From positions 75,106 to 139,105 of the IMG/VR virus record IMGVR_UViG_3300028797_000108: a stretch of 64,000 nt of DNA; one strand, written 5' to 3'. This document shows, one piece after another, positions 869-61,772 of this stretch (its first letter is position 1; every line of letters begins with the position of its first letter). The notes beneath the pieces are model-generated. The model was not told where the DNA came from, did not search any database, and worked only from the letters and a program-made list of their open reading frames with translations. This stretch comes from a virus. Taxonomy: Duplodnaviria; Caudoviricetes. The position numbers and the translations under genes were made by a program.

Positions 869-1471
869 CTATTCTAGGAATCTTGCAAGTCCAGAGACAC
901 CGTCGGTCGGATCATCAATGGTGTTGATGTTGTCAAAGTAGTCAAGGCCACTGACCATTCTCTTTTCTCTGTCCTTAATTTGGTTGACGCTTAAAATGAT
1001 ACTGTTCGAGACGATCTGGGTGATAAATGCAAATGCAGAGGAACCGCGAGCAGGATCATATCTGTTTATGTAGCTAAATGCACAAATAAGTGCGTCTTGA
1101 ATGATGTCATTTATGTCATCAGGATTCCGCAACGAGGTTCTTAACTTATATGAATTTATACGACCATTGATGATTAGCAGAAAGTCTTCACAGAGTTCAT
1201 TCTTTATCTTTTCAAACTCAGCGTCAAACGCTTTCTTCTCTTCGGGCGTAAATGCTTCATACTTAGCTTGAAGCGCCTCAATGCTTTTGACTTTGTTGAT
1301 GATAAAATCTTTACCTAGTTCAAACTTCTGTCCGTCAATCTTTTCATTGTTCTTCTTGTGTTCAAGTCGTGCGAGATAGGCAGCACACCAATCTCCCTTG
1401 TCGTTGATGTTCATACTATTGTAAAGATTCACCACCTCGCGTAAGCGTTTATTATTAACGTATTCGGGCAT
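869..1471 (-). CDS. gp55: T4 gp55-like late transcription sigma factor
   Basis: Starts MPEYVNNKRL (gp55 YVNNK motif); DIIQDALICAFSYINRYDP..SSAFAFITQI region 2 motif; GGAGA RBS before ATG 1471. Confidence 0.85.
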   Translation of the reverse strand: MPEYVNNKRLREVVNLYNSMNINDKGDWCAAYLARLEHKKNNEKIDGQKFELGKDFIINKVKSIEALQAKYEAFTPEEKKAFDAEFEKIKNELCEDFLLIINGRINSYKLRTSLRNPDDINDIIQDALICAFSYINRYDPARGSSAFAFITQIVSNSIILSVNQIKDREKRMVSGLDYFDNINTIDDPTDGVSGLARFLE

Positions 1472-7938: not shown

Positions 7939-9186
7939 ATGGCTGATATTGCTACTGTGAAATCTTTGCTCCGTAAGATGAGCCCCTCCCACACCCCGAT
8001 GATTCAGGGTATCCACGGTACTGGAAAGACCGAAGTTGTTCGCCAGCTTTGCGCTGAACCGGACGGCTGGAACCTTCGCTGCTGCGAACTTCAGGGTTCT
8101 CAGCTCTCTGACGTTGGTGACCTTATCGGTCTCCAGAAGATCATTGAATATGAAGAAGAAGTGGAAGTCTTCGTAGACGGCAAACCCGTGAAGACCACGG
8201 TGAAGCGTCAGGAAACTGCGTGGATTCCGCCTTACTGGTTCCCGAAGGACGGCAAGCCGTTCTGCCTCTTCTTGGACGAAATCAACCGTGCTGCGCCGCC
8301 TATCAAGCGTGCAATGATGCAGATCGGTAACGACCATCGCCTCTTGAATTTTGAACTTCCGGAAGGCTCCCGCGTGGTTTGCGCCATCAACCCGGACAAT
8401 GAAGGTAACTACGACGTTGAAGAATTTGACGACGCCGAAAACGACCGTTACTGGAAGATCTTGTTCACCCCGACCATTCAGGAATGGATTTTCCATGCCC
8501 GCAAGATCGGCGTTCTGGACTGTATCATTTCCTACATTGAAGCCCATGAAGAAGACCTTGACCCGTATGCAATGGCAGGCAAGGTGAAGACCAAGGGCTC
8601 CAACGACGAAGTTGACCAGCTCGGCGTTAAGCAGTCTCGCCGTTCTTGGGTTCGCCTTTCCAAGGATATGGTTCGTGCCCTTGAAATTGACCCGGATGCT
8701 TACAGCGGTCCTAAGGGCAACGCTGAACTCCGTTTGCTCGCTGCCGGTTGGGTAGGTGAAGCGATTGCTCAGAACTTCGCTTCCTGGTACCAGCAGCACG
8801 GCGCTGGCTTGCAGCCTAACCAGATTATTGAAGCTGACCCGAGCGACAAGAAGATCTGGGCAAAGCTCAAGAAGATGGGTGAAGCTCAGTCGCTCGAAAC
8901 CCTTCGCCTCGGCTCCGCAATTTGCGGCTACCTCCAGAAGGTTGAAGATAAGCTCGTAGAAAAGTCCAAGCCGACTGAATACGGTAAGCTTGTCGCCGAC
9001 AACTGGTATAAGTTCCTTACCAGCATCCCGAAGGAAGTGGCTGCTCAGGTGAACATGCAGGGCGTGGAAGCTGCTCGTAAGCAGAACCAAAAGGACCCGT
9101 CCACCTGCAAGTGGGTTGCTCGCCTCTCGGCGATAAATGAAAAGGTCTGCGACTTCTACATTGACCTCGCTGACTACGATGTGTAA
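7939..9186 (+). CDS. MoxR-family AAA+ ATPase
   Basis: Walker A GIHGTGKT, DLIGL, Walker B LFLDEINRA, AINP sensor, SRRSW motif. Confidence 0.9.
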   Translation: MADIATVKSLLRKMSPSHTPMIQGIHGTGKTEVVRQLCAEPDGWNLRCCELQGSQLSDVGDLIGLQKIIEYEEEVEVFVDGKPVKTTVKRQETAWIPPYWFPKDGKPFCLFLDEINRAAPPIKRAMMQIGNDHRLLNFELPEGSRVVCAINPDNEGNYDVEEFDDAENDRYWKILFTPTIQEWIFHARKIGVLDCIISYIEAHEEDLDPYAMAGKVKTKGSNDEVDQLGVKQSRRSWVRLSKDMVRALEIDPDAYSGPKGNAELRLLAAGWVGEAIAQNFASWYQQHGAGLQPNQIIEADPSDKKIWAKLKKMGEAQSLETLRLGSAICGYLQKVEDKLVEKSKPTEYGKLVADNWYKFLTSIPKEVAAQVNMQGVEAARKQNQKDPSTCKWVARLSAINEKVCDFYIDLADYDV

Positions 9187-9371: not shown

Positions 9372-11345
9372 ATGGCTGAAAAGAACTACTACCTTGATAC
9401 AACTGGCATGGCTTGGGAACCCGTCCTCGCACATGCCCGCAACACTATCGCGGAAGCGATGAAAATTCTGCAGCTTGAACCGGCTGCAATGCTTTACCTT
9501 TCAATTTGTGAAATGGTTCCCATCAATGATAAGGATGTGACGCTGCGTCTTGCGACTGCGAACGCTGGCGGTCAAATTCAGCTCCAGTATAACCCGTATT
9601 GGATTTGCCGTTTGAATGACGCATCCGAATTGGCTTTCGCATTTTTCGGCGAAAGTTTGCGCATCGCCTTGCACCACGCCACTCACCGCCGTGCTATGCC
9701 GGCTGCGCCGCACAAGTTCGCCTCCGACTTGATTTGCTTTGAAAACCAGAAGCTCTTGTCCAAGTGGCGTTCCGATGTTAAAGAAATTTTGAAAAACCTG
9801 CCGTCTTACAGTCAGATCGCCCCTGCCATTGAACCGATGGGCTTCAAGAAGCGCGATATGTGGCAGCTTGAAAAGATCCGCGACTACCTGCGCCGCGTGC
9901 AGGAACAAATGCAACAGAAGAAGCAGGGTCAGGGTCAACCCCAGCAGGGTCAAGGCCAGGGCCAGCAGGGCCAGAGCTCCCAAAATCAAAATGGGCAGGG
10001 CCAGCAGTCGCAGCAGGGCCAAGGACAAGGACAACAGCAACAGTCCGGTCAGGGTCAGGGTCAGCAACAGCAGGGCCAAGGACAAGGACAACAGCAACAG
10101 TCCGGTCAGGGTCAGGGTCAGCAACAGCAGGGCCAAGGACAAGGACAACAGCAACAGCAGCAAGGCCAAGGAAACGGCCAAGGCCAACAGCAGCAGGGTC
10201 AGGGCCAGAACGGTCAGCAACAGCAGGGCCAAGGACAAGGTCAGCAGCAGCAAGGCCAAGGACAGGGACAGGGCCAAGGTCAGAACGGCGAAGGCCAAGA
10301 TCAAAACGGTCAGGGTCAGGGCCAGGGACAGGACGGTCAGGGTCAGGGTCAAAACGGACAAGGCTCCGGTAACGGCCAAGATCAACAGCAGGGCCAGAAC
10401 GGTCAGGGACAAGGTGGCGGCCAAGGCGGCCAGCAGGGTCAAGACCAGGGTCAGGGCGATGACGGTTCTTCCTCGGGTGACCAGGGTGCCAACCAGGGTG
10501 ACCGCAGCGATCCGTCCCACGGTTCCAACGGCCTTGACAGCTCGGCAGACTGCGGTGACCTTCGCGGCGACAATGCTCCGAAGAACAGCAGCAATGATAC
10601 GGGCAACGCCTTGAATGAACACTTTGCGGCTGACGAACGCCACGCTCGTAAGGCTACCCAAGAATGGGGTGAAAACACTCTTGTCCAGCAGGAAATCCGT
10701 AGCATCACCAAGCACCTCGGTTCTAACCCTGAACTTTGGGGTTCCATGCCTGGTGAACTTCAGGAAATGATTCGCCGTGCCAACACGCCGAAGTTTGACC
10801 CGACTCCGATTATCAAGCACTGGAAGCAGACTATTCAGTCTGAAGAATACTATGATACTCGTGCCAAGGCAAACAGACGCCACGGCTTTGACAGACCTGG
10901 CTGGCGCCACAAGATGAAGAGCTCGATGGTGGAATGCGTGGACGCTTCCGGTTCTATGAGCGACCGCGATGTTGCGGCAGGTGAAGCATTTGTGAACCTG
11001 TTCATCAAGCACTGCGAAACTTGGTTCTGTTATTGGGACGCTGCCTGCGGTCCGATTGAACCTGTCAAGAAGAAGCGTAAGGGTGACCTCAACCTCGAGA
11101 ACATGAGAGGCGGTACCGATCCCCGTTGCATCATTGACAGAATTGAAAAGGAAAGATTGCAGTTCGGCGGTATCTTGGTGTTCACTGACTGTGGCTTTGA
11201 CTGGCCGCGTCCGAAGACTAAGTACCTGAACAAGATCTTCATCATCGGCACGGAAAACTGCTGTGCTCCTCCGAGCTGGTGCCGCCACTTCCTGAACATC
11301 AAGGACATCAAGAAGTGGATGAAGGACCAGAACTTCGAGTTCTAA
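9372..11345 (+). CDS. VWA-domain partner of the MoxR ATPase (DUF2201-like) with long Gln/Gly linker
   Basis: C-terminal MIDAS VDASGSM..GGT..VFTD; N-terminal peptidase-like domain (LQYNP) with HExxH position reading GESLR; central Q/G tract. Confidence 0.85.
   Translation: MAEKNYYLDTTGMAWEPVLAHARNTIAEAMKILQLEPAAMLYLSICEMVPINDKDVTLRLATANAGGQIQLQYNPYWICRLNDASELAFAFFGESLRIALHHATHRRAMPAAPHKFASDLICFENQKLLSKWRSDVKEILKNLPSYSQIAPAIEPMGFKKRDMWQLEKIRDYLRRVQEQMQQKKQGQGQPQQGQGQGQQGQSSQNQNGQGQQSQQGQGQGQQQQSGQGQGQQQQGQGQGQQQQSGQGQGQQQQGQGQGQQQQQQGQGNGQGQQQQGQGQNGQQQQGQGQGQQQQGQGQGQGQGQNGEGQDQNGQGQGQGQDGQGQGQNGQGSGNGQDQQQGQNGQGQGGGQGGQQGQDQGQGDDGSSSGDQGANQGDRSDPSHGSNGLDSSADCGDLRGDNAPKNSSNDTGNALNEHFAADERHARKATQEWGENTLVQQEIRSITKHLGSNPELWGSMPGELQEMIRRANTPKFDPTPIIKHWKQTIQSEEYYDTRAKANRRHGFDRPGWRHKMKSSMVECVDASGSMSDRDVAAGEAFVNLFIKHCETWFCYWDAACGPIEPVKKKRKGDLNLENMRGGTDPRCIIDRIEKERLQFGGILVFTDCGFDWPRPKTKYLNKIFIIGTENCCAPPSWCRHFLNIKDIKKWMKDQNFEF
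10014..10157 (+). repeat. 57-bp tandem repeat (about 2.5 copies) inside the Gln/Gly tract
   Basis: CAGGGCCAAGGACAAGGACAACAGCAACAG starts at 10014, 10071, 10128. Confidence 0.9.
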
Positions 11346-15431: not shown

Positions 15432-15440
15432 TACATTTTT

Positions 15441-15571
15441 CGGGCGATAGTTCAAGCGGTCGGGAATACTTTCCGAGTAAAACAGAACGATCTCAGACCT
15501 TCGTGCTAGGTCGCGAGAAAACACGAAGTTAGGACGATAGACTTCCCTGGGTTCAAGTCCTGGGGCGCTCG
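15441..15571 (+). ncRNA. tRNA-like RNA with expanded multi-hairpin centre
   Basis: 5' CGGGCGATAGTTCAAGCGG, 3' T-arm CTGGG-TTCAAGT-CCTGG and acceptor strand, followed by CTA; no anticodon loop. Confidence 0.55.
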
Positions 15572-15582
15572 CTAGCTTTTAT

Positions 15583-17605: not shown

Positions 17606-18221
17606 CTACTGGACAAGATCGCGTCAAACTGAAGAGGATTGTTAGTAGTAGCGAAGTACAAGCTATGAACAGGGTTGCTAGTAGGTTTGATGGCAACGCG
17701 TGCAGACCCCACCGATGAGGAGGGGTGAACTGCAGAGGAACCCGACCTGGGGGCGCATCGGGGTGAGTCTTGACAATTTGATGAAAGCGAATCATCGCAA
17801 GTCGTTGGATGTAGTTATAAATGGAAAAACAGGGTCCGCTTCGGCGAGCTCATAATTGTGGGTCCGACTCCCACCGTCCGTAAAACGATTCTGTGAGTAG
17901 TCAAAGGGCTAATCTAAAGCTTGCCTCCAATGCGAAAAAAGCTGAGCGTGCCACCGGCGAGCGATGGTGGGGTTACAGCATAACCACAAAGCTGCACAAT
18001 GCAAGATCGCCTTCGGCAGATAGTTCAAGCGTAGAACATCGGGTTGTCCCCGAAGATTACTGGGTAAAAGCCAAGGCTACCAGAAGTCACCGATTGTTGC
18101 ATATCCTGCTTGGGTCGCGGTTGGTCCCGTGAGACTCGCTCAGGCTTGGTTGAAGGTTCAACAAGTAAAAGAGGACTTAGGCTTGCTTGGCGCCTTAAGC
18201 CTAACCAGCACAAGCATTATT

Positions 18222-18295
18222 GGGGTCATAGCTCAATTTGGTAGAGCACTAGCTTTGCAAGCTAGGGGTTCCGGGTTCGAGTCCCGGTGGCTCCA
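18222..18295 (+). tRNA. tRNA-Ala(TGC)
   Basis: CTAGC-TTTGCAA-GCTAG, G3-U70. Confidence 0.95.
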
Positions 18296-18306
18296 CGAAA
18301 CATTTC

Positions 18307-18668
18307 GGGCTCCCTCCGCCATTTGCAAGTAAGACAAAGAAGGCACGACAAACCGAAAGTAGTTACATTGGTTGCTCTTTGTGGCTGCGATCTTGGTCCT
18401 TCCTAATGAAAGTACCATACAAAGGAGTAGGTAGATCCGTGAAGGAATCGCTCTAAGCTGGAGTAGATCGGATCGGGAATCGCTGAAACGACCGAAGATG
18501 CCTATAACAGAAAGGTTGATGGTGTGCAGCTAGCACTGTCGCTGAAGTAAATGTGCGGCATTGGAAGGATGGAAACGGTGAGGCGGTATACTGATGGGAC
18601 AGGGATAAGCTCCTGACTTTTAGGTATATGTGGTAGCCACTGTGGAGGTTCAAATCCTTCGGTGCCCA
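18307..18668 (+). ncRNA. About 360-nt candidate RNA ending in a tRNA-like T-arm and acceptor strand
   Basis: GGGCTCC (18307) can pair with GGTGCCC (18661); T-arm GGAGG-TTCAAAT-CCTTC; followed by A+CTA like the tRNAs. Confidence 0.4.
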
Positions 18669-18679
18669 CTAATTATTAT

Positions 18680-18753
18680 TGGATTGTAGCTCAGTTTGGT
18701 AGAGCGGTCGGCTGTTAACCGATTGGTCGCAGGTTCGAGTCCTGCCTTTCCAG
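18680..18753 (+). tRNA. tRNA-Asn(GTT)
   Basis: GTCGG-CTGTTAA-CCGAT. Confidence 0.9.
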
Positions 18754-18780
18754 CTAAACGCCGATTAGGCAACATTTTCT

Positions 18781-18856
18781 GTGCTATAGCCGTCCGCAGG
18801 AATCGGACGCCGGCAGTCGCCGGAAATCAGTGGTTCAATTCCACTCGTAGCCACCA
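18781..18856 (+). ncRNA. tRNA-like RNA with 4-nt anticodon loop and encoded CCA
   Basis: CCGGC-AGTC-GCCGG, T-arm AGTGG-TTCAATT-CCACT, ends GCCACCA. Confidence 0.55.
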
Positions 18857-18970
18857 AAGGAAATGGCTTGGTTAAGATAACCTCAACATCAAGTAGCCGA
18901 AAGGTGTGGGACACTTGACGATCAGACAACTCGAGTAATGCTGAACGCTTGAGTCCCAGCGCTTTTGATT

Positions 18971-19043
18971 GCCTGTATAGCTCAGCTGGTAGAGCAGCGG
19001 CTTTGTAACCCGCAGGTCGGGGGTTCGGATCCCTCTGCAGGCG
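18971..19043 (+). tRNA. tRNA-Thr(TGT)
   Basis: GCGGC-TTTGTAA-CCCGC. Confidence 0.9.
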
Positions 19044-19522: not shown

Positions 19523-19681
19523 CTAAGCCTCGGATGGCATCGTTTGATTATGGCAAGACGCCCACGCGAAGTGGGAAAGAGCGGTCCGAATCCGCTTGCC
19601 TGAACAGTGAGTACACGGTCTGGGGCTAGGAGCAAAAAGCTGAGAGACGTCGTAGGTGTATTGCTCCGGTACTTTTGAATT

Positions 19682-19752
19682 GGGTTCATAGTTTAATGGA
19701 TGAATACCGGCTTGTCACGCCGGCGGTACGGGATCGTGACCCGTTGGACCCG
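19682..19752 (+). tRNA. tRNA-Asp(GTC)
   Basis: CCGGC-TTGTCAC-GCCGG; atypical T-loop ATCGTGA. Confidence 0.85.
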
Positions 19753-19759
19753 CTAAAAA

Positions 19760-19977
19760 TTGCTGTTTGACAAATCAGGTGAACTGCAGATAGCCTGAGG
19801 CGTTGATTGCGGTTTGAGGTCCGGCGACGGCTGGATGCAAAGGAATAGCCGGAAGCGCGGTTCTAGAGGAAGTTCCTCAGGAGCCGGTGAAGGGAGGCCC
19901 CAAAAGGGCATTAAAACAACGGCGGGAAGGCACCCTCTAAAGAGCTCTGAATATGCAGCCCTCAGAGCAAACAGCAA
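19760..19977 (+). ncRNA. Candidate 218-nt multi-hairpin RNA
   Basis: Perfect 10-bp closing stem TTGCTGTTTG/CAAACAGCAA spanning the whole gap between two tRNAs. Confidence 0.55.
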
Positions 19978-19981
19978 CTAT

Positions 19982-20055
19982 CGGCATGCATAACGATTGG
20001 TTCGTTTGCCACTCTGATAAGGTGGAGATTGAAGGTTCAACTCCTTCCGTGCCGA
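19982..20055 (+). tRNA. tRNA-Ile(GAT)
   Basis: CCACT-CTGATAA-GGTGG. Confidence 0.9.
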
Positions 20056-20058
20056 CTA

Positions 20059-20118
20059 AAGATACTTACAGCAAAGTTATCAACATTCTTTTTTTGGTAG
20101 AATCGCAAAGGTATCTTG
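20059..20118 (+). ncRNA. Scaffold RNA copy A (short hairpin cargo)
   Basis: AAGATACT-TACAGCAA...GGTATCTTG. Confidence 0.6.
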
Positions 20119-20123
20119 ATTAT

Positions 20124-20196
20124 GCCGCGGTAGCCTAGGTGGTCATGGCGCGGGACTGAAAATCCTGAGATGTTGGTCCGATTCCAACCCTCGGCA
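20124..20196 (+). tRNA. tRNA-Phe(GAA)
   Basis: CGGGA-CTGAAAA-TCCTG. Confidence 0.9.
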
Positions 20197-20209
20197 CTAA
20201 AACAATTAT

Positions 20210-20281
20210 AGCGGGGAGAGGATGGTTCCTCCGCCGGTCTCATAAGCCGTGCTTCTGCAGGTTCGAGTCCTGCCGCCGCTA
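20210..20281 (+). tRNA. tRNA-Met(CAT), atypical D-arm
   Basis: CGGT-CTCATAA-GCCG, canonical T-arm. Confidence 0.75.
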
Positions 20282-20285
20282 CTAT

Positions 20286-20369
20286 GGCCTACTGGCGGAA
20301 CTGGTAGACGCGCCTGACTTAGGATCAGGTGCCCGTGAGGGCGTGGGAGTTCGAGTCTCTCGTAGGTCA
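20286..20369 (+). tRNA. tRNA-Leu(TAG)
   Basis: CCTGA-CTTAGGA-TCAGG. Confidence 0.95.
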
Positions 20370-20389
20370 CTAAAACACAAGGAGTTATT

Positions 20390-20596
20390 ATGACTGAACA
20401 AGAAGCAAAAAGAGCAAAAGAAATTGAAGCAATGCTGAATTGGAATTTGCAGCGATCCCAGGCCTTGGGTGAATTCCCTTTGCCCGTCACTTGTGGTATC
20501 ACTCAGATCTTTAACTGCGTTCAGTCTGAAAGGGCGGCTGCTTGGAAGCGCAAGAATGATATTGCGAACGGGCGAGTCCCTGATTCGGTTCCGTAG
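20390..20596 (+). CDS. Small hypothetical protein inside the tRNA cluster
   Basis: AAGGAG RBS, 68 aa; stop codon lies inside tRNA-Arg. Confidence 0.65.
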   Translation: MTEQEAKRAKEIEAMLNWNLQRSQALGEFPLPVTCGITQIFNCVQSERAAAWKRKNDIANGRVPDSVP

Positions 20597-20662
20597 CTCA
20601 GTCGGATTTAGAGCGCCACGCTACGAACGTGGAGGTCCCAGGTTCGAGTCCTGGCGGAACTA
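20587..20662 (+). tRNA. tRNA-Arg(ACG)
   Basis: CCACG-CTACGAA-CGTGG. Confidence 0.95.
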
Positions 20663-20719
20663 CTAAAGCGGTTTGGGTGGAGGTACGTCGCCGTTATAAA
20701 TATCTCAAATCGCTTTTAT

Positions 20720-20803
20720 GCTTACATGAATCCGAGCGGCAAAGGACGCAGTCTGCAAAACTGCGGGCGAAAGCCTTCGCAGGTTCGAGTCCTGCTGTAA
20801 GCT
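20720..20803 (+). tRNA. tRNA-Cys(GCA) with long variable arm
   Basis: GCAGT-CTGCAAA-ACTGC, U73, variable hairpin GGC-GAAA-GCC. Confidence 0.85.
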
Positions 20804-20809
20804 CTAATA

Positions 20810-20935
20810 AAGATAGAGACAGCAAAATTAAATGCTATCCCAAGGCTGAAACGAGGGGTCCGAATCCCCTCATGGAGGTTGGTCTTCCATTCGTCTAGTG
20901 GTCTAGGACTCAGCCAAAGCAAAAAATCTATCTTG
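20810..20935 (+). ncRNA. Scaffold RNA copy B carrying a circularly permuted tRNA (CCC anticodon-like)
   Basis: AAGATAGA/TCTATCTT stem; T-arm, sealed acceptor stem, D-arm in that order. Confidence 0.75.
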
Positions 20936-20939
20936 TCTT

Positions 20940-21023
20940 GGAGGGTTAGCCTAACGGTAAGGCAGCGGTCTTGAAAACCGCCGCGGGGAAACTCGCTTGT
21001 AGGTTCAAATCCTGCACCCTCCG
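20940..21023 (+). tRNA. tRNA-Ser(TGA)
   Basis: GCGGT-CTTGAAA-ACCGC, long variable arm. Confidence 0.95.
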
Positions 21024-21037
21024 CTAAAACATTTTAA

Positions 21038-21109
21038 GTCCCATTGGTGTAGTGGTAGCACGTCTCCTTGCCATGGAGAAGGTCGCCGGTCCGAATCCGG
21101 CATGGGGCT
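21038..21109 (+). tRNA. tRNA-Gly(GCC)
   Basis: TCTCC-TTGCCAT-GGAGA. Confidence 0.9.
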
Positions 21110-21113
21110 CTAT

Positions 21114-21240
21114 AGATACGCACAGCAATGTTAAAGCATGGTCTGATAAACCCCGTGTTGCAGGTTCGAGTCCTGTCGGGTCGCTGAAAGGTGACCTGTA
21201 GCTCAATCGGTAGAGCAGGAAAAGCAAAAAACGTATCTTG
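21114..21240 (+). ncRNA. Scaffold RNA copy C carrying a circularly permuted tRNA (GAT anticodon-like)
   Basis: AGATACG/CGTATCT stem; anticodon loop, T-arm, GAAA-capped acceptor stem, D-arm. Confidence 0.75.
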
Positions 21241-21245
21241 TATAA

Positions 21246-21316
21246 GTCCTATTGGTGTAGTGGTAACATTTCTGCCTTCCAAGCAGGTGTGGCGAGTTCG
21301 AGTCTCGCATAGGGCT
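21246..21316 (+). tRNA. tRNA-Gly(TCC)
   Basis: TCTGC-CTTCCAA-GCAGG. Confidence 0.9.
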
Positions 21317-21319
21317 CTA

Positions 21320-21442
21320 AAGGTGCTCTCAGCTAAATTTTCATAGGAAAATTCTAGAGTAGTATAATTGGTTATTACACCCTCCGATAAAAGAGGGAGA
21401 TCCTGGTTCGAGTCCAGGCGCCAGACCCCGAAAGGCATCTTG
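21320..21442 (+). ncRNA. Scaffold RNA copy D enclosing a degenerate tRNA in normal order
   Basis: AAGGTGCT/GGCATCTT stem, CAGCTAA; inner D-arm, CCCTC/GAGGG arm with 8-nt loop, T-arm. Confidence 0.65.
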
Positions 21443-21450
21443 ATCTTACC

Positions 21451-21522
21451 CCCGTGGTAGTGTAATGGTTAGCACACGAGCTTGTGGCGCTCGTAGTTCG
21501 GATTCGAGTTCCGGCCTTGGGA
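21451..21522 (+). tRNA. tRNA-His(GTG)
   Basis: CGAGC-TTGTGGC-GCTCG; no encoded G-1, A73. Confidence 0.85.
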
Positions 21523-21525
21523 TAT

Positions 21526-21599
21526 ACCTCCGTGGCGCAGTGGTTTAGCGCGGCTGCCCTACAAGCAGCGGGTCGTAGGTTCAACTCCTACCGGGGGTA
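21526..21599 (+). tRNA. tRNA-Val(TAC)
   Basis: GCTGC-CCTACAA-GCAGC (C33). Confidence 0.9.
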
Positions 21600-21603
21600 C
21601 TAT

Positions 21604-21675
21604 TGGGGCGTGGTGTAATTGGTAACACGCATGACTCTGACTCATGAATTCTTGGTTCAAGTCCAGGCGCCCCAA
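21604..21675 (+). tRNA. tRNA-Gln(CTG)
   Basis: CATGA-CTCTGAC-TCATG. Confidence 0.95.
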
Positions 21676-21755
21676 CTATGGTGACCCAAAGCCAAAACAA
21701 ATTGGGTCGTTTCTAGTGAGTAGCCTTGTAGCTAGATCTGTAATTAAAGGCCCTT

Positions 21756-21828
21756 AGGGATATAGTTCAATTGGTAGAACGGCGGACTCCAAACCCGCGT
21801 GTTAGAGGTTCAAATCCTTTTGTCCCTG
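21756..21828 (+). tRNA. tRNA-Trp(CCA)
   Basis: GCGGA-CTCCAAA-CCCGC. Confidence 0.9.
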
Positions 21829-21832
21829 TTAT

Positions 21833-21916
21833 GGCCGAGTGGCGGAATTGGTAGACGCGGCGGACTCAAAATCCGCTGACCGCGAGGTCGTGAGAGTTCA
21901 AGTCTCTCCTTGGCCA
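21833..21916 (+). tRNA. tRNA-Leu(CAA)
   Basis: GCGGA-CTCAAAA-TCCGC. Confidence 0.95.
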
Positions 21917-21920
21917 CTAT

Positions 21921-22038
21921 AGATACCAACAGCAAAAATGCGTCTTGCTCCTCCTGGGGTTATAGCTCAATTGGTAGAGCACCGCCGACATACTGGCGGG
22001 GGTTGCGGGTTCGAGTCCCGATATGCAATGGTATCTTG
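21921..22038 (+). ncRNA. Scaffold RNA copy E carrying a tRNA-Ala-like body permuted at the T-arm/acceptor junction
   Basis: AGATACCA/TGGTATCT stem; TTGCTCC precedes GGGGTTATAGCTCAATTGGTAGAGC. Confidence 0.7.
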
Positions 22039-22043
22039 ACTTT

Positions 22044-22129
22044 GGAGGAATACACTAATTGGTTAAGTGGCCACCCTGCTAAGGTGGTGTCCCGAAAGGG
22101 GCGTGAAGGTTCAAGTCCTTCTTCCTCCG
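22044..22129 (+). tRNA. tRNA-Ser(GCT)
   Basis: CCACC-CTGCTAA-GGTGG, long variable arm. Confidence 0.95.
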
Positions 22130-22159
22130 TATTGACATTTTTTGACAATTTCTTGTTAG

Positions 22160-61406: not shown

Positions 61407-61584
61407 CTTACTGACCGGAGCGAGACTCAACCCAATGAGCTATCGGCAGGTGTAAGTTGCGACCTAGCAGAGGTGCGGCTAGGGCTGTTCGTATAGTACC
61501 AAAGGATGAACTGTTCACGACAGTTCAGTATGCCGTCACAGGCGTATGGAATGTAGTCCGAGTACAGGGTGACCGCTCGGTAAG
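61407..61584 (+). ncRNA. Candidate structured ncRNA
   Basis: Behind TTGTTATATTTT promoter motif; closing stem CTTACTGA/TCGGTAAG; internal hairpins; no credible ORF. Confidence 0.5.
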
Positions 61585-61772
61585 TCCATTGTAAGTCCTC
61601 TTGCGAAGTCATACAGTTCACCAGTCAAAACAAAGTTTAGATTGATGTTAACTGGAGATTGTGAGTTCCCGATATGGGCTTGCTGTCTCCAGTTACCATA
61701 TCAAACAAAGATTTAGAATTCCCCTTAAATAAATAAAATACAAAAACACAAATAATAGAGAGGAATTTAATC

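What the first reader, a model, noticed from the sequence alone, without database searches (positions are those of the whole stretch)
21114..21240. Circularly permuted tRNA-Ile-like RNA with acceptor stem capped by a GAAA tetraloop
Seen: the order is GGT-CTGATAA-ACC (GAT anticodon loop), canonical T-arm GCAGG-TTCGAGT-CCTGT, 3' acceptor strand CGGGTCGC, linker TGAAAG, 5' acceptor strand GTGACCTG, canonical TA-GCTC-AATCGGTA-GAGC D-arm. Inference: the D/T elbow is intact but there is no free 3' end, so it cannot be charged unless recut; a GNRA cap suggests selection for a closed stem.
Basis: partly seen in the sequence, partly recalled or inferred. Interest (0 to 1): 0.82.

Follow-up and report, generated by a model that had tools for sequence, protein, structure and literature searches.

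The report
Sealed, permuted tRNA mimic on handle
This stretch of a large rumen phage really is a tRNA-Ile written back to front with its acceptor end sealed, but it is most likely not a tRNA gene: it is one member of a widespread, undescribed family of phage small RNAs that show tRNA look-alikes on a conserved "handle", probably bound by a Ro60-like ring protein.

Summary
Joining 21192-21219 to 21140-21184 gives a 73-nt cloverleaf that ARAGORN calls tRNA-Ile(GAU), even at 115% of its threshold. The native order is not called.

The element is wrapped in a conserved handle: a 7-bp stem, then ACAGCAA, with the 3' strand ending UCU-UG. The handle occurs five times in this tRNA array. I found 200 distinct copies in other phage contigs, and more in cultured Felixounaviruses.

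Cargo in these copies varies. It can be nothing, a bare anticodon hairpin, a normal-order tRNA body, or a body permuted at 28/29, 31/32 or 43/44. Covariation supports every helix (96% paired against 27-42% in slid controls). The GAAA cap is not conserved; only the closure of the stem is.

Rfam YrlA matches below threshold (42.8 against 69 bits), and no TROVE gene is present. Instead the handle travels with DUF2828, which I modelled and found to be Ro60-shaped. DUF2828 is present in 22 of 23 near-complete handle-bearing phages, and in 0 of 18 control records without a handle. It often lies directly downstream of a handle.

This record is only 37% complete and shows no such gene.

Best reading: a Y-RNA-like tRNA mimic. 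The scan has reached this reading before on other DNA (15 notes, at least 12 genomes). I found no description of the RNA family in the literature.

The parts
21114..21120 (+). Handle stem, 5' strand (AGAUACG). It lies 3 nt after tRNA-Gly(GCC), which ends at 21110.
   Evidence: Pairs with 21232-21238. 7 of 7 pairs are kept in 9 homologues, 4 of them with changes on both sides. The pattern AGATANNNACAGCAA occurs 4 times exactly in the window, all in the array.
21122..21128 (+). Invariant single-stranded handle motif ACAGCAA
   Evidence: Invariant in alignment A2. In 17 phage records there were 60+ occurrences on one strand, clustered in tRNA arrays, against 1 for the reversed control pattern.
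21129..21139 (+). A/U-rich 5' linker (UGUUAAAGCAU) ending in the family's W-D-GG junction
   Evidence: Read from the sequence. Variable in the homologues and unpaired in the RNAalifold consensus.
21140..21154 (+). Positions 29-43 of the tRNA: 3-bp hairpin GGU/ACC with the canonical 7-nt loop CUGAUAA (anticodon GAU), then C42 C43
   Evidence: All 3 hairpin pairs covary. ARAGORN reads the anticodon as gat.
21155..21176 (+). Variable loop GUGUU and T arm GCAGG-UUCGAGU-CCUGU
   Evidence: T stem is 100% paired in 9 homologues, with 4 of 5 pairs changed on both sides. This part aligns to the YrlA model.
21177..21198 (+). Closed acceptor arm: 3' strand CGGGUCG, C73, cap U-GAAA-G, G-1, 5' strand UGACCUG (7 bp plus 2 extra pairs)
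   Evidence: The MFE fold gives 9 bp and a GAAA loop. 6 of 7 acceptor pairs covary. The cap sequence is not conserved.
21199..21219 (+). U8 A9, D arm GCUC-AAUCGGUA-GAGC, A26, and G27 G28, which pair with C42 C43
   Evidence: D stem is 94% paired. The 27-28:42-43 pairs are 89% paired, one of them with GC/CG exchange.
21220..21240 (+). A-rich 3' linker (AAAAGCAAAAAA), handle stem 3' strand CGUAUCU, and the UG tail. tRNA-Gly(UCC) starts 5 nt later, at 21246.
20060..20118 (+). Sibling handle element A: 59 nt, with no tRNA-like cargo
   Evidence: Exact motif match and complementary ends.
20811..20935 (+). Sibling handle element B: a second permuted tRNA-like body, broken at about 31/32, with loop AUCCCAA (CCC) and cap UUGGUC
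   Evidence: It is 82-89% identical to elements in L187 and L021.
21321..21442 (+). Sibling handle element E: a degenerate handle (AGGUGCU / GGCAUCU-UG, motif UCAGCUA) carrying a normal-order tRNA-like body with an 8-nt loop. ARAGORN calls it 'tRNA-??? (ataa)'.
   Evidence: The handle was read by eye.
21921..22038 (+). Sibling handle element D: a normal-order D arm, anticodon arm and T arm without an acceptor stem
   Evidence: Exact motif and 8-bp stem. Rfam tRNA scores 30.7 bits over model positions 6-65 only.

Best explanation
The element is a small non-coding RNA of the Y-RNA type, not a tRNA gene.

Inferred: it is transcribed with the tRNA array. The enzymes that trim the neighbouring tRNAs release it, since those tRNAs lie 3 nt upstream and 5 nt downstream.

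Shown by covariation: its two ends pair into a 7-bp stem. That stem, with the unpaired ACAGCAA beside it and the UCU-UG end, forms a conserved handle. The rest folds into a complete tRNA L-shape with a sealed acceptor end. Its chain enters and leaves through the anticodon stem at position 28/29.

Inferred from co-occurrence, gene adjacency and fold: the handle is the binding site of a Ro60-shaped ring protein of the DUF2828 family. The tRNA-like module then serves as in bacterial YrlA. It would be the stable, tRNA-enzyme-recognised part that recruits or blocks another factor, such as a host exoribonuclease or a defence protein.

The RNA may be opened at the cap by RNase P and given CCA, as M. 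smegmatis YrlA is. Even then it would stay a two-piece particle on the handle, not a translating tRNA.
For: 1. The structure is real. RNAalifold on 9 homologues independently finds the handle stem, anticodon hairpin, T arm, acceptor stem and D arm. 96.3% of cells pair against 27-42% when slid, 19 pairs have changes on both sides, and 0 of 500 shuffles match. G-U pairs sit on the + strand only, so selection acts on this RNA strand.

2. The conserved unit is the handle, not the tRNA.
- There are five copies in this array and 200 distinct copies in the fetched phage loci.
- Lengths are bimodal: 50-70 nt and 100-140 nt.
- Cargo ranges from nothing or a bare anticodon hairpin to tRNA bodies in normal order or permuted at 28/29, 31/32 or 43/44.
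- Copies always lie on the tRNA strand, a few nt from the neighbouring tRNAs.

3. The topology matches YrlA. Rfam RF02553 aligns end to end at 42.8 bits, E = 1e-8.

4. There is a partner protein.
- DUF2828 (phrog_850, 'RNA-binding protein') is present in 12 of 17 and 39 of 49 handle-bearing records.
- Among near-complete records the figure is 22 of 23. It is 0 of 18 in control records without a handle.
- A handle lies within 160 nt upstream of the DUF2828 ORF in L188/189, L190, L191, L194/195, G010 and G087.
- The DUF2828 model (pLDDT 77.7) has Ro60 proteins as all of its 13 best PDB matches, over the full length. The best is phage phiLo Ro60 at E = 4.7e-8.

5. Cultured phages show the same arrangement. 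In Felixounavirus CL1 the DUF2828 gene sits directly upstream of a tRNA array holding four handle elements, one of them permuted. The same stretch is conserved in 221 phage records.

6. Literature.
- Felixounavirus Bas63 gp130 is Ro60-like, lies upstream of the tRNA genes and counters the ppl defence. Its authors guessed that some of the 'tRNA genes' are Y RNAs (10.1101/2024.10.10.617714).
- Phage phiLo Ro60 binds Y-like RNAs and host PNPase (PMC12135203).

7. A relative has both parts together. G087 shares tRNA and handle segments at 73-96% identity. It has an orthologue of this element just after tRNA-Gly(GCC), and a handle plus DUF2828 gene right after the array.
Against: - No DUF2828 or TROVE gene is present in the 139 kb held for this phage (37% complete), nor in its relative G014. 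For this genome the partner is therefore only assumed.
- No binding, expression or end-mapping data exist.
- The handle lacks the GNCGAAN0-1G motif of known bacterial Y RNAs.
- The co-occurrence could partly reflect shared ancestry of the phages sampled.
- This element is a better tRNA by score than the array's ordinary tRNA-Ile(GAU), which drops out at 110% of the ARAGORN threshold and scores 29.3 bits in Rfam.
- The anticodon loop keeps every canonical feature, which a pure protein-tether role does not require.
Confidence: 0.6

Rival explanations
1. It is a true circularly permuted tRNA-Ile(GAU) gene. The flanks are cut off, G28 is ligated to G29 to give a circle, RNase P and 3' trimming then open the cap, and CCA addition yields a working tRNA. 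This is the pathway known in red and green algae and in one archaeon.
For: - The reordered sequence is an excellent tRNA: ARAGORN calls it at 115% of threshold, and all tertiary nucleotides and a canonical anticodon loop are present.
- The acceptor stem has the 7 bp that RNase P needs.
- The array's ordinary tRNA-Ile(GAU) scores poorly.
- The handle stem would bring the two cut sites together.
Against: - No bulge-helix-bulge is present. The linkers next to the junction are A-rich, variable and unpaired in the consensus.
- No RtcB gene lies in the held 139 kb.
- To my knowledge, no tRNA splicing endonuclease is known in bacteria or their phages.
- The same handle carries bare anticodon hairpins, T arms alone, bodies lacking a D arm, normal-order bodies without an acceptor stem, or nothing.
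- Caps can be as short as 3-4 nt, or can hold an 80-nt insert.
- The orthologue at the same array position in G087 has anticodon UGU. The class-I copy in G014, at a nearby but not identical position, has GUU.
- The discriminator base does not track the anticodon. Here it is C73, where bacterial tRNA-Ile has A73 (from my own knowledge).
Confidence: 0.12
2. It is an anticodon-loop bait. The handle mainly gives stability and correct processing, and the displayed tRNA or anticodon arm soaks up a host factor that reads anticodon loops. That factor could be an anticodon nuclease of an anti-phage defence, or a tRNA-modifying enzyme. Sealing the acceptor end keeps the bait out of translation. This could act with or without the Ro60-like protein.
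For: - Many short family members carry only an anticodon-like hairpin with canonical 7-nt loops (CUGUUAA, CUGUAAA, CUGAAAA, CUUUUAA and others).
- 128 of 200 elements have a hairpin with at least a 4-bp stem and a U33/R37 7-nt loop, against 44 expected from shuffles. This count includes T loops.
- L031 and L038 are 96% identical outside the loop (5 of 118 differ) but differ at 5 of 7 loop positions.
- The anticodon differs among relatives of this element: GAU here, UGU at the same array position in G087, and GUU in G014's class-I copy nearby.
- Bas63 gp130 has a counter-defence phenotype.
Against: - Other close pairs keep identical loops, so the loops are not generally hypervariable.
- Some cargos have no anticodon-like loop at all.
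- No anticodon nuclease or its target is known for the unknown host.
- ppl, the defence that gp130 counters, is predicted to be a DNA-directed enzyme rather than a tRNA nuclease.
Confidence: 0.15
3. It is a decaying relic: two tandem tRNA-Ile copies that each lost one end, or debris from recombination within the tRNA array, with no function of its own.
For: Permuted genes can arise from tandem duplication followed by loss. tRNA arrays are recombination-prone, and the array also holds other odd tRNA-like pieces.
Against: - The two truncations meet exactly at 28/29.
- All stems covary across distant phages.
- The handle is conserved from rumen phages to coliphages.
- The same architecture recurs dozens of times.
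Confidence: 0.04
4. It is a DNA-level element, such as an inverted-repeat cassette boundary or a recombination site, rather than an RNA.
For: The element has terminal inverted repeats with a variable core and fixed outer bases, it is present in many copies, and its content is cassette-like.
Against: - The orientation is strictly the same as the tRNAs (forward-only or reverse-only in most records).
- G-U pairs are tolerated on the transcribed strand only.
- The packing against tRNA ends fits RNA processing.
Confidence: 0.03

Closest known systems
YrlA, the tRNA-like Y RNA bound by bacterial and mycobacteriophage Ro60/Rsr (Rfam RF02553; Chen et al. 2014, PMC4201824)
   Same: [quoted passage not shown]
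- Inside, the order is variable region, T arm, closed 'acceptor' stem-loop, D arm, with the tRNA tertiary nucleotides kept, including the A15-U48 pair.
- There is no free CCA end.
- The Rfam model aligns end to end (42.8 bits, E = 1e-8).
   Different: - The score is below the gathering threshold of 69 bits.
- The motif is ACAGCAA instead of GNCGAAN0-1G.
- There is no inner Ro-binding helix.
- The element keeps a complete canonical anticodon hairpin.
- It lies inside a tRNA array, not next to a TROVE gene.
- The associated protein family is DUF2828, not TROVE.
Phage Ro60 particles: Thermus phage phiLo Ro60 with Yrl1/Yrl2 (PMC12135203; PDB 9KOP, 9L5Y), and Felixounavirus Bas63 gp130 (preprint 10.1101/2024.10.10.617714)
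   Same: - Each has a phage-encoded Ro60-shaped ring protein with small RNAs encoded beside its gene.
- phiLo Ro60 is the best structural match of the DUF2828 model (TM 0.58/0.61).
- The Bas63 gene lies directly upstream of the tRNA array, as the DUF2828 gene does in CL1.
   Different: - The phiLo RNAs were picked by a CGAA motif and are not tRNA-shaped.
- For Bas63 the RNAs were only guessed at and never defined.
- No such protein gene is seen in the part of this phage that is held.
Circularly permuted tRNA genes of Cyanidioschyzon merolae, prasinophyte algae and Thermofilum pendens (named from my own knowledge; mentioned in PMC3400036 and PMC4238349)
   Same: The 3' half lies upstream of the 5' half on one strand, a short linker joins the acceptor strands, and reordering gives a canonical cloverleaf.
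   Different: - Those genes have a bulge-helix-bulge at the leader/trailer junction, and their hosts have a splicing endonuclease.
- Here the junction is unstructured and is bounded by a conserved handle that also occurs without any tRNA.
Class I RNAs of dictyostelid social amoebae (PMC7919456)
   Same: - These are RNAs of about 60 nt with a short covarying stem joining the 5' and 3' ends.
- A conserved, unpaired 11-nt motif lies directly after the 5' strand. Its fixed positions (C6, C9, A10, A11) fit ...CAGCAA.
- The interior is variable and the 3' end is conserved (CUGU there, CUUG here).
   Different: - Class I RNAs are eukaryotic, have their own promoter element, and carry no tRNA-like cargo.
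- Their reported binder is an RRM protein.
- The letter-level match of the motif rests on positions given in the text and on my memory of the logo. I did not test it with a model.

Membership tests
Circularly permuted tRNA gene (algal/archaeal type) | The 3' half is upstream of the 5' half on the same strand, and the reordered sequence scores as a tRNA | tested here: met
   ARAGORN calls tRNA-Ile(gat) on 21192-21219 joined to 21140-21184, up to 115% of threshold. The native order is not called.
Circularly permuted tRNA gene (algal/archaeal type) | A bulge-helix-bulge motif formed by the leader and trailer at the processing junction | tested here: not met
   The linkers next to the 28/29 junction are A/U-rich, differ between homologues, and are unpaired in the RNAalifold consensus. 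The only conserved flank pairing is the distal 7-bp handle stem.
Circularly permuted tRNA gene (algal/archaeal type) | A splicing endonuclease and ligase are available | tested here: inconclusive
   No RtcB in the 139 kb held. The record is 37% complete and the host is unknown.
Circularly permuted tRNA gene (algal/archaeal type) | A circular intermediate and a mature linear tRNA exist | not testable with these tools
YrlA (Rfam RF02553) | Reaches the Rfam gathering score of 69 bits | tested here: not met
   42.8 bits, E = 1e-8. Only the tRNA-like part aligns, and the six pairs of the inner stem are missing. There is no YrlA hit at gathering score in 141 kb of related arrays.
YrlA (Rfam RF02553) | T arm, closed acceptor-like stem-loop and D arm, in that order, between paired 5' and 3' ends, with tRNA tertiary nucleotides | tested here: met
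YrlA (Rfam RF02553) | GNCGAAN0-1G motif near the 5' end (proposed Ro60 contact) | tested here: not met
   The motif here is ACAGCAA, invariant in the family. The YrlA motif is defined in PMC4201824.
YrlA (Rfam RF02553) | Encoded within about 4 kb of a TROVE-domain Ro60 gene, on the same strand | tested here: not met
   TROVE (PF05731) is absent from G000 and from 19 handle-bearing records, 5 of them complete.
Handle RNAs (stem + ACAGCAA ... UG), the family seen in this scan beside DUF2828 | A 7-8 bp terminal stem that covaries, ACAGCAA directly after its 5' strand, and a 3' strand followed by NG | tested here: met
Handle RNAs (stem + ACAGCAA ... UG), the family seen in this scan beside DUF2828 | Lies within a phage tRNA array, on the tRNA strand, a few nt from its neighbours | tested here: met
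   3 nt after tRNA-Gly(GCC) and 5 nt before tRNA-Gly(UCC). The same holds in related arrays.
Handle RNAs (stem + ACAGCAA ... UG), the family seen in this scan beside DUF2828 | A DUF2828 (Ro60-shaped) gene in the same genome | tested here: inconclusive
   None in the 139 kb held, by Pfam model or by profile A1, but the record is 37% complete. DUF2828 is present in 22 of 23 near-complete handle-bearing records and in the relative G087.
Dictyostelid Class I RNA | A short 5'/3' stem plus an adjacent unpaired 11-nt motif with fixed T3, C6, C9, A10, A11 | tested here: inconclusive
   C6, C9, A10 and A11 fit ACGC-ACAGCAA. T3 falls in the variable stem (it is G here). I compared against the paper's text only; no model was run.

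The most novel reading that the evidence does not exclude
The handle RNAs may be a programmable bait library. Each one shows a sealed tRNA or a bare anticodon arm with a chosen anticodon on a Ro60-like ring protein. The particle would capture a host factor that reads anticodon loops, such as a defence nuclease or a modifying enzyme, and hand it to a nuclease or neutralise it. In members with a 7-bp acceptor stem, such as this one, RNase P would open the cap and CCA would be added. That would give a protein-tethered, two-piece and possibly chargeable tRNA, something with no described counterpart.
Probability: 0.18. Interest if true: 0.88.

Novelty: new variant of a known kind. Interest (0 to 1): 0.7.

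Why it matters
Phage tRNA arrays are usually read as codon-usage helpers. This element shows that they also hide a second class of gene: tRNA-shaped RNAs that cannot be charged and that share a handle tied to a Ro60-like protein.

The family is widespread. It occurs from rumen and gut phages to Felixounaviruses grown in many laboratories, where the elements are unannotated or are called 'tRNA-OTHER' or 'hypothetical protein'.

One member of the protein family already has a counter-defence phenotype. Defining the RNA partner would therefore:
- make that mechanism testable;
- extend Y RNA biology to a new handle and a new protein family;
- correct tRNA counts in phage annotation;
- possibly explain the orphan Class I RNAs of social amoebae.

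Tried and rejected
- **Splicing motif:** I looked for a conserved 4-bp helix with flanking bulges between the linkers. B has UGCU/AGCA, but C and the homologues have nothing consistent.
- **Known ribozymes or other RNA families:** Rfam at E up to 10 over 19950-22150 gave only tRNA-type hits, YrlA and noise. There was no hammerhead, twister, pistol, hatchet or intron hit.
- **T4 stable RNAs rnaC and rnaD:** I fetched and read them. They have no handle.
- **TROVE and RtcB genes:** absent.
- **A fuller relative of this phage:**
  - The 774-aa ORF found no related viral contigs.
  - It found nothing in five large handle-bearing records either.
  - G014 shares the array order but also lacks DUF2828 in its held 47%.
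- **Sequence search of DUF2828 against solved structures:** nothing. Only the fold comparison showed the likeness to Ro60.
- **Literature:** searches for permuted tRNAs in phages, and for DUF2828, found no description of this RNA family.
- **General hypervariability of the anticodon loop:** only one striking close pair. Other close pairs keep the same loop.

Full report
**What is there.** The window holds a 7-kb array of 29 ARAGORN tRNAs on the + strand. The record is an IMG/VR virus contig of 139 kb, estimated 37% complete. The finding lies between tRNA-Gly(GCC), which ends at 21110, and tRNA-Gly(UCC), which starts at 21246.

One addition matters. G27 G28 (21218-19), at the end of the D-arm half, pair with C42 C43 (21153-54). 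The chain is therefore broken inside the anticodon stem, between positions 28 and 29.

Joining 21192-21219 to 21140-21184 gives a 73-nt cloverleaf with a 7-bp acceptor stem, a 4-bp D stem, a 5-bp anticodon stem, the loop CUGAUAA, a 5-nt variable loop and a 5-bp T stem. All the usual tertiary-pair nucleotides are present.

ARAGORN calls this molecule tRNA-Ile(gat), and still does so at 115% of its default thresholds. Only three of seven ordinary tRNAs of the array pass at that level. The native order is not called at all. The native RNA folds with a 9-bp acceptor helix capped by GAAA (MFE -39 kcal/mol, z = -3.07).

**The context that changes the reading.** The element is enclosed by AGAUACG...CGUAUCU. 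The 5' strand is followed at once by ACAGCAA, and the 3' strand by UG.

The pattern AGATANNNACAGCAA occurs exactly four times in the window, all in the array and all on the + strand. The positions are 20060, 20811, 21114 and 21921. A degenerate fifth copy lies at 21321-21442. The stem differs between copies but stays complementary.

The cargo differs from copy to copy:
- A has nothing tRNA-like.
- B has a second permuted tRNA body, broken at about 31/32, with a CCC loop.
- C is the permuted tRNA-Ile.
- D and E have tRNA bodies in normal order that lack an acceptor stem.

**The family elsewhere.** Two pattern scans of IMG/VR, together with targeted fetching of arrays, gave 200 distinct stem-bounded elements.
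- Lengths are bimodal: 50-70 nt and 100-140 nt.
- In 17 records the motif occurred more than 60 times, nearly always on one strand and clustered. The reversed control pattern occurred once.
- The elements sit inside tRNA arrays, on the tRNA strand, 3-8 nt from their neighbours.
- Many short members carry only an anticodon-like hairpin with a canonical 7-nt loop.
- Long members carry tRNA bodies in normal order, or permuted at 28/29, 31/32 or 43/44.
- The caps that close the acceptor stem are 3-11 nt long and unrelated in sequence.
- One relative has about 80 nt, itself tRNA-like, inserted in the cap.

So closure of the stem is conserved. The GNRA loop is particular to this copy.

**Is the fold selected?** I aligned nine class-I relatives (those broken at 28/29) with MAFFT.

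RNAalifold, with no guidance, recovered the handle stem, the 3-bp anticodon hairpin, the T arm, the acceptor stem and the D arm. 17 of its 24 pairs showed changes on both sides.

With the full structure written in:
- 96.3% of cells pair, against 27-42% when partners are slid by 1-3 columns.
- 19 of 28 pairs have changes on both sides, against 3-8 when slid.
- No shuffle out of 500 reaches any observed measure.

G-U pairs appear on the + strand only, so selection acts on this RNA strand.

**What it resembles.** At a relaxed threshold, Rfam's YrlA model (the tRNA-like Y RNA of bacterial Ro60) aligns end to end at 42.8 bits, E = 1e-8. That is below the gathering score of 69 bits. The match comes from the T arm, closed acceptor and D arm lying in the YrlA order. 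YrlA's inner stem and its GNCGAA motif are absent.

No TROVE gene is present in this record or in 19 other handle-bearing records. No related array holds a full-score YrlA. The element therefore works like YrlA but fails three of YrlA's defining features.

**The likely partner.** Earlier notes of this scan pointed to DUF2828, and I tested that lead.
- PF11443 is found in 12 of 17 and then 39 of 49 handle-bearing records. That is 22 of 23 of the near-complete ones.
- In a control set of chance-matched viral contigs, 0 of 18 records without a handle have it. One further control record has it and probably does carry a handle.
- The protein belongs to phrog_850, 'RNA-binding protein'.
- It has no sequence match to solved structures.
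- An AlphaFold model built from six sequences (pLDDT 77.7) has Ro60 proteins as all 13 of its best PDB matches, over the full length. Phage phiLo Ro60 is first, at E = 4.7e-8 and TM 0.58/0.61.
- A handle lies within 160 nt upstream of the DUF2828 reading frame in at least six lineages. This parallels the YrlA-rsr arrangement.

The protein family is present in 708 cultured-phage records. In Felixounavirus CL1 the gene sits directly upstream of a tRNA array that holds four handle elements, one with a permuted tRNA-like cargo. That stretch is conserved in 221 phage records, where the elements are unannotated.

The PhageMaP preprint reports that the Felixounavirus Bas63 protein at this position (gp130) is Ro60-like and counters the ppl defence. 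Its authors guessed that some 'tRNA genes' are Y RNAs. Phage phiLo Ro60 binds two Y-like RNAs and host PNPase.

**This genome.** No DUF2828 gene is seen in the 139 kb held, nor in G014, which shares the array order. G087, a 14-kb contig, shares tRNA and handle segments at 73-96% identity. It has an orthologue of this element directly after tRNA-Gly(GCC), with the loop CUUGUAA instead of CUGAUAA. It also has a handle and a DUF2828 gene right after the array. The partner is therefore plausible for this lineage but not shown.

**Mechanism, with status.**
- Shown: the fold, the handle and the family.
- Inferred from spacing: release by the processing of the neighbouring tRNAs.
- Inferred from co-occurrence, adjacency and fold: binding of the handle by the Ro60-like protein.
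- By analogy: the tRNA module as a stable, enzyme-recognised domain that tethers or blocks another factor.

M. smegmatis YrlA, which also has a 7-bp acceptor stem, is cut by RNase P and receives CCA in vivo. The same could happen at this cap and would give a two-piece particle.

**Rivals.**

*A true permuted tRNA gene.* The quality of the cloverleaf and the weak score of the array's ordinary tRNA-Ile speak for it. Several things speak against it:
- the unstructured junction;
- handle copies with partial or no tRNA;
- the variable break points;
- the differing anticodons: UGU at the same array position in G087, and GUU in G014's class-I copy nearby;
- discriminator bases that do not follow the anticodon.

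*An anticodon-loop bait.* The bare anticodon hairpins suggest this role. So does one pair of elements that is 96% identical outside the loop but differs at 5 of 7 loop positions. Other close pairs keep the same loop, however.

*A relic or a DNA-level element.* Neither fits the covariation or the strand bias.

**Novelty.** Y RNAs with tRNA-like domains, and phage Ro60 proteins, are known. This handle, its link to DUF2828, the complete anticodon arm and the range of permutations are not described in the papers I could search. The scan itself has met the family before on other DNA: 15 notes in at least 12 genomes. The resemblance to dictyostelid Class I RNAs (short stem, adjacent unpaired motif ending CAGCAA by the positions given, conserved 3' end) is a lead that I did not test.

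Noticed in passing
window 61501-61603 (+): Full-length match to Rfam cow-rumen-2 RNA (RF02947): 74.1 bits against a gathering score of 66. This is an orphan motif known from rumen metagenomes, here located in a phage record.
   Followed up: no
window 19982-20056 (+): The array's ordinary tRNA-Ile(GAU) is a weak tRNA. It scores 29.3 bits in Rfam and drops out of ARAGORN at 110% of threshold. It is followed at once by the empty handle element A.
   Followed up: partly
window 15432-15582, 17606-18222, 18296-18680, 18754-18971, 19523-19982: Long GC-rich gaps in the tRNA array with tRNA-like ends (T arms, GATAGTTCAAGCG boxes) and no Rfam match.
   Followed up: no
L080:7951-8161 (-), compared with L076:7510-7641 (-): Two near-identical handle elements differ by an insertion of about 80 nt, itself tRNA-like, exactly in the loop that caps the acceptor stem. 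ARAGORN calls the insert tRNA-Phe(aaa).
   Followed up: partly
L031:2183-2307 (-) against L038:7468-7593 (+): These handle elements are 96% identical outside the anticodon loop (5 of 118 differ) but differ at 5 of 7 loop positions (CUGCAAA against UUAGGGA), as if the loop had been swapped.
   Followed up: partly
L071:8419-9007 (-); L076:5753-6103 (-); L080:5998-6365 (-): Related phage tRNA arrays also hold a ROOL RNA (303 bits) and phage-encoded tmRNAs (101-108 bits). Several hold amber-suppressor tRNAs (anticodon CTA), which suggests TAG recoding in those phages.
   Followed up: no
L194:~900-945 (+) and L071:~1040-1130 (-): A minimal handle (44 nt), or two ACAGCAA motifs, abut the ribosome-binding site of the DUF2828 gene. 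This could let the protein regulate its own mRNA.
   Followed up: partly
window 7939-9186 and 9372-11345 (+): An AAA_5 (dynein-related / MoxR-CobS-like) ATPase sits next to a 657-aa ORF with no Pfam match. From memory this looks like the CobS/CobT-like pair seen in large phages. It is not the Ro60-like partner.
   Followed up: no
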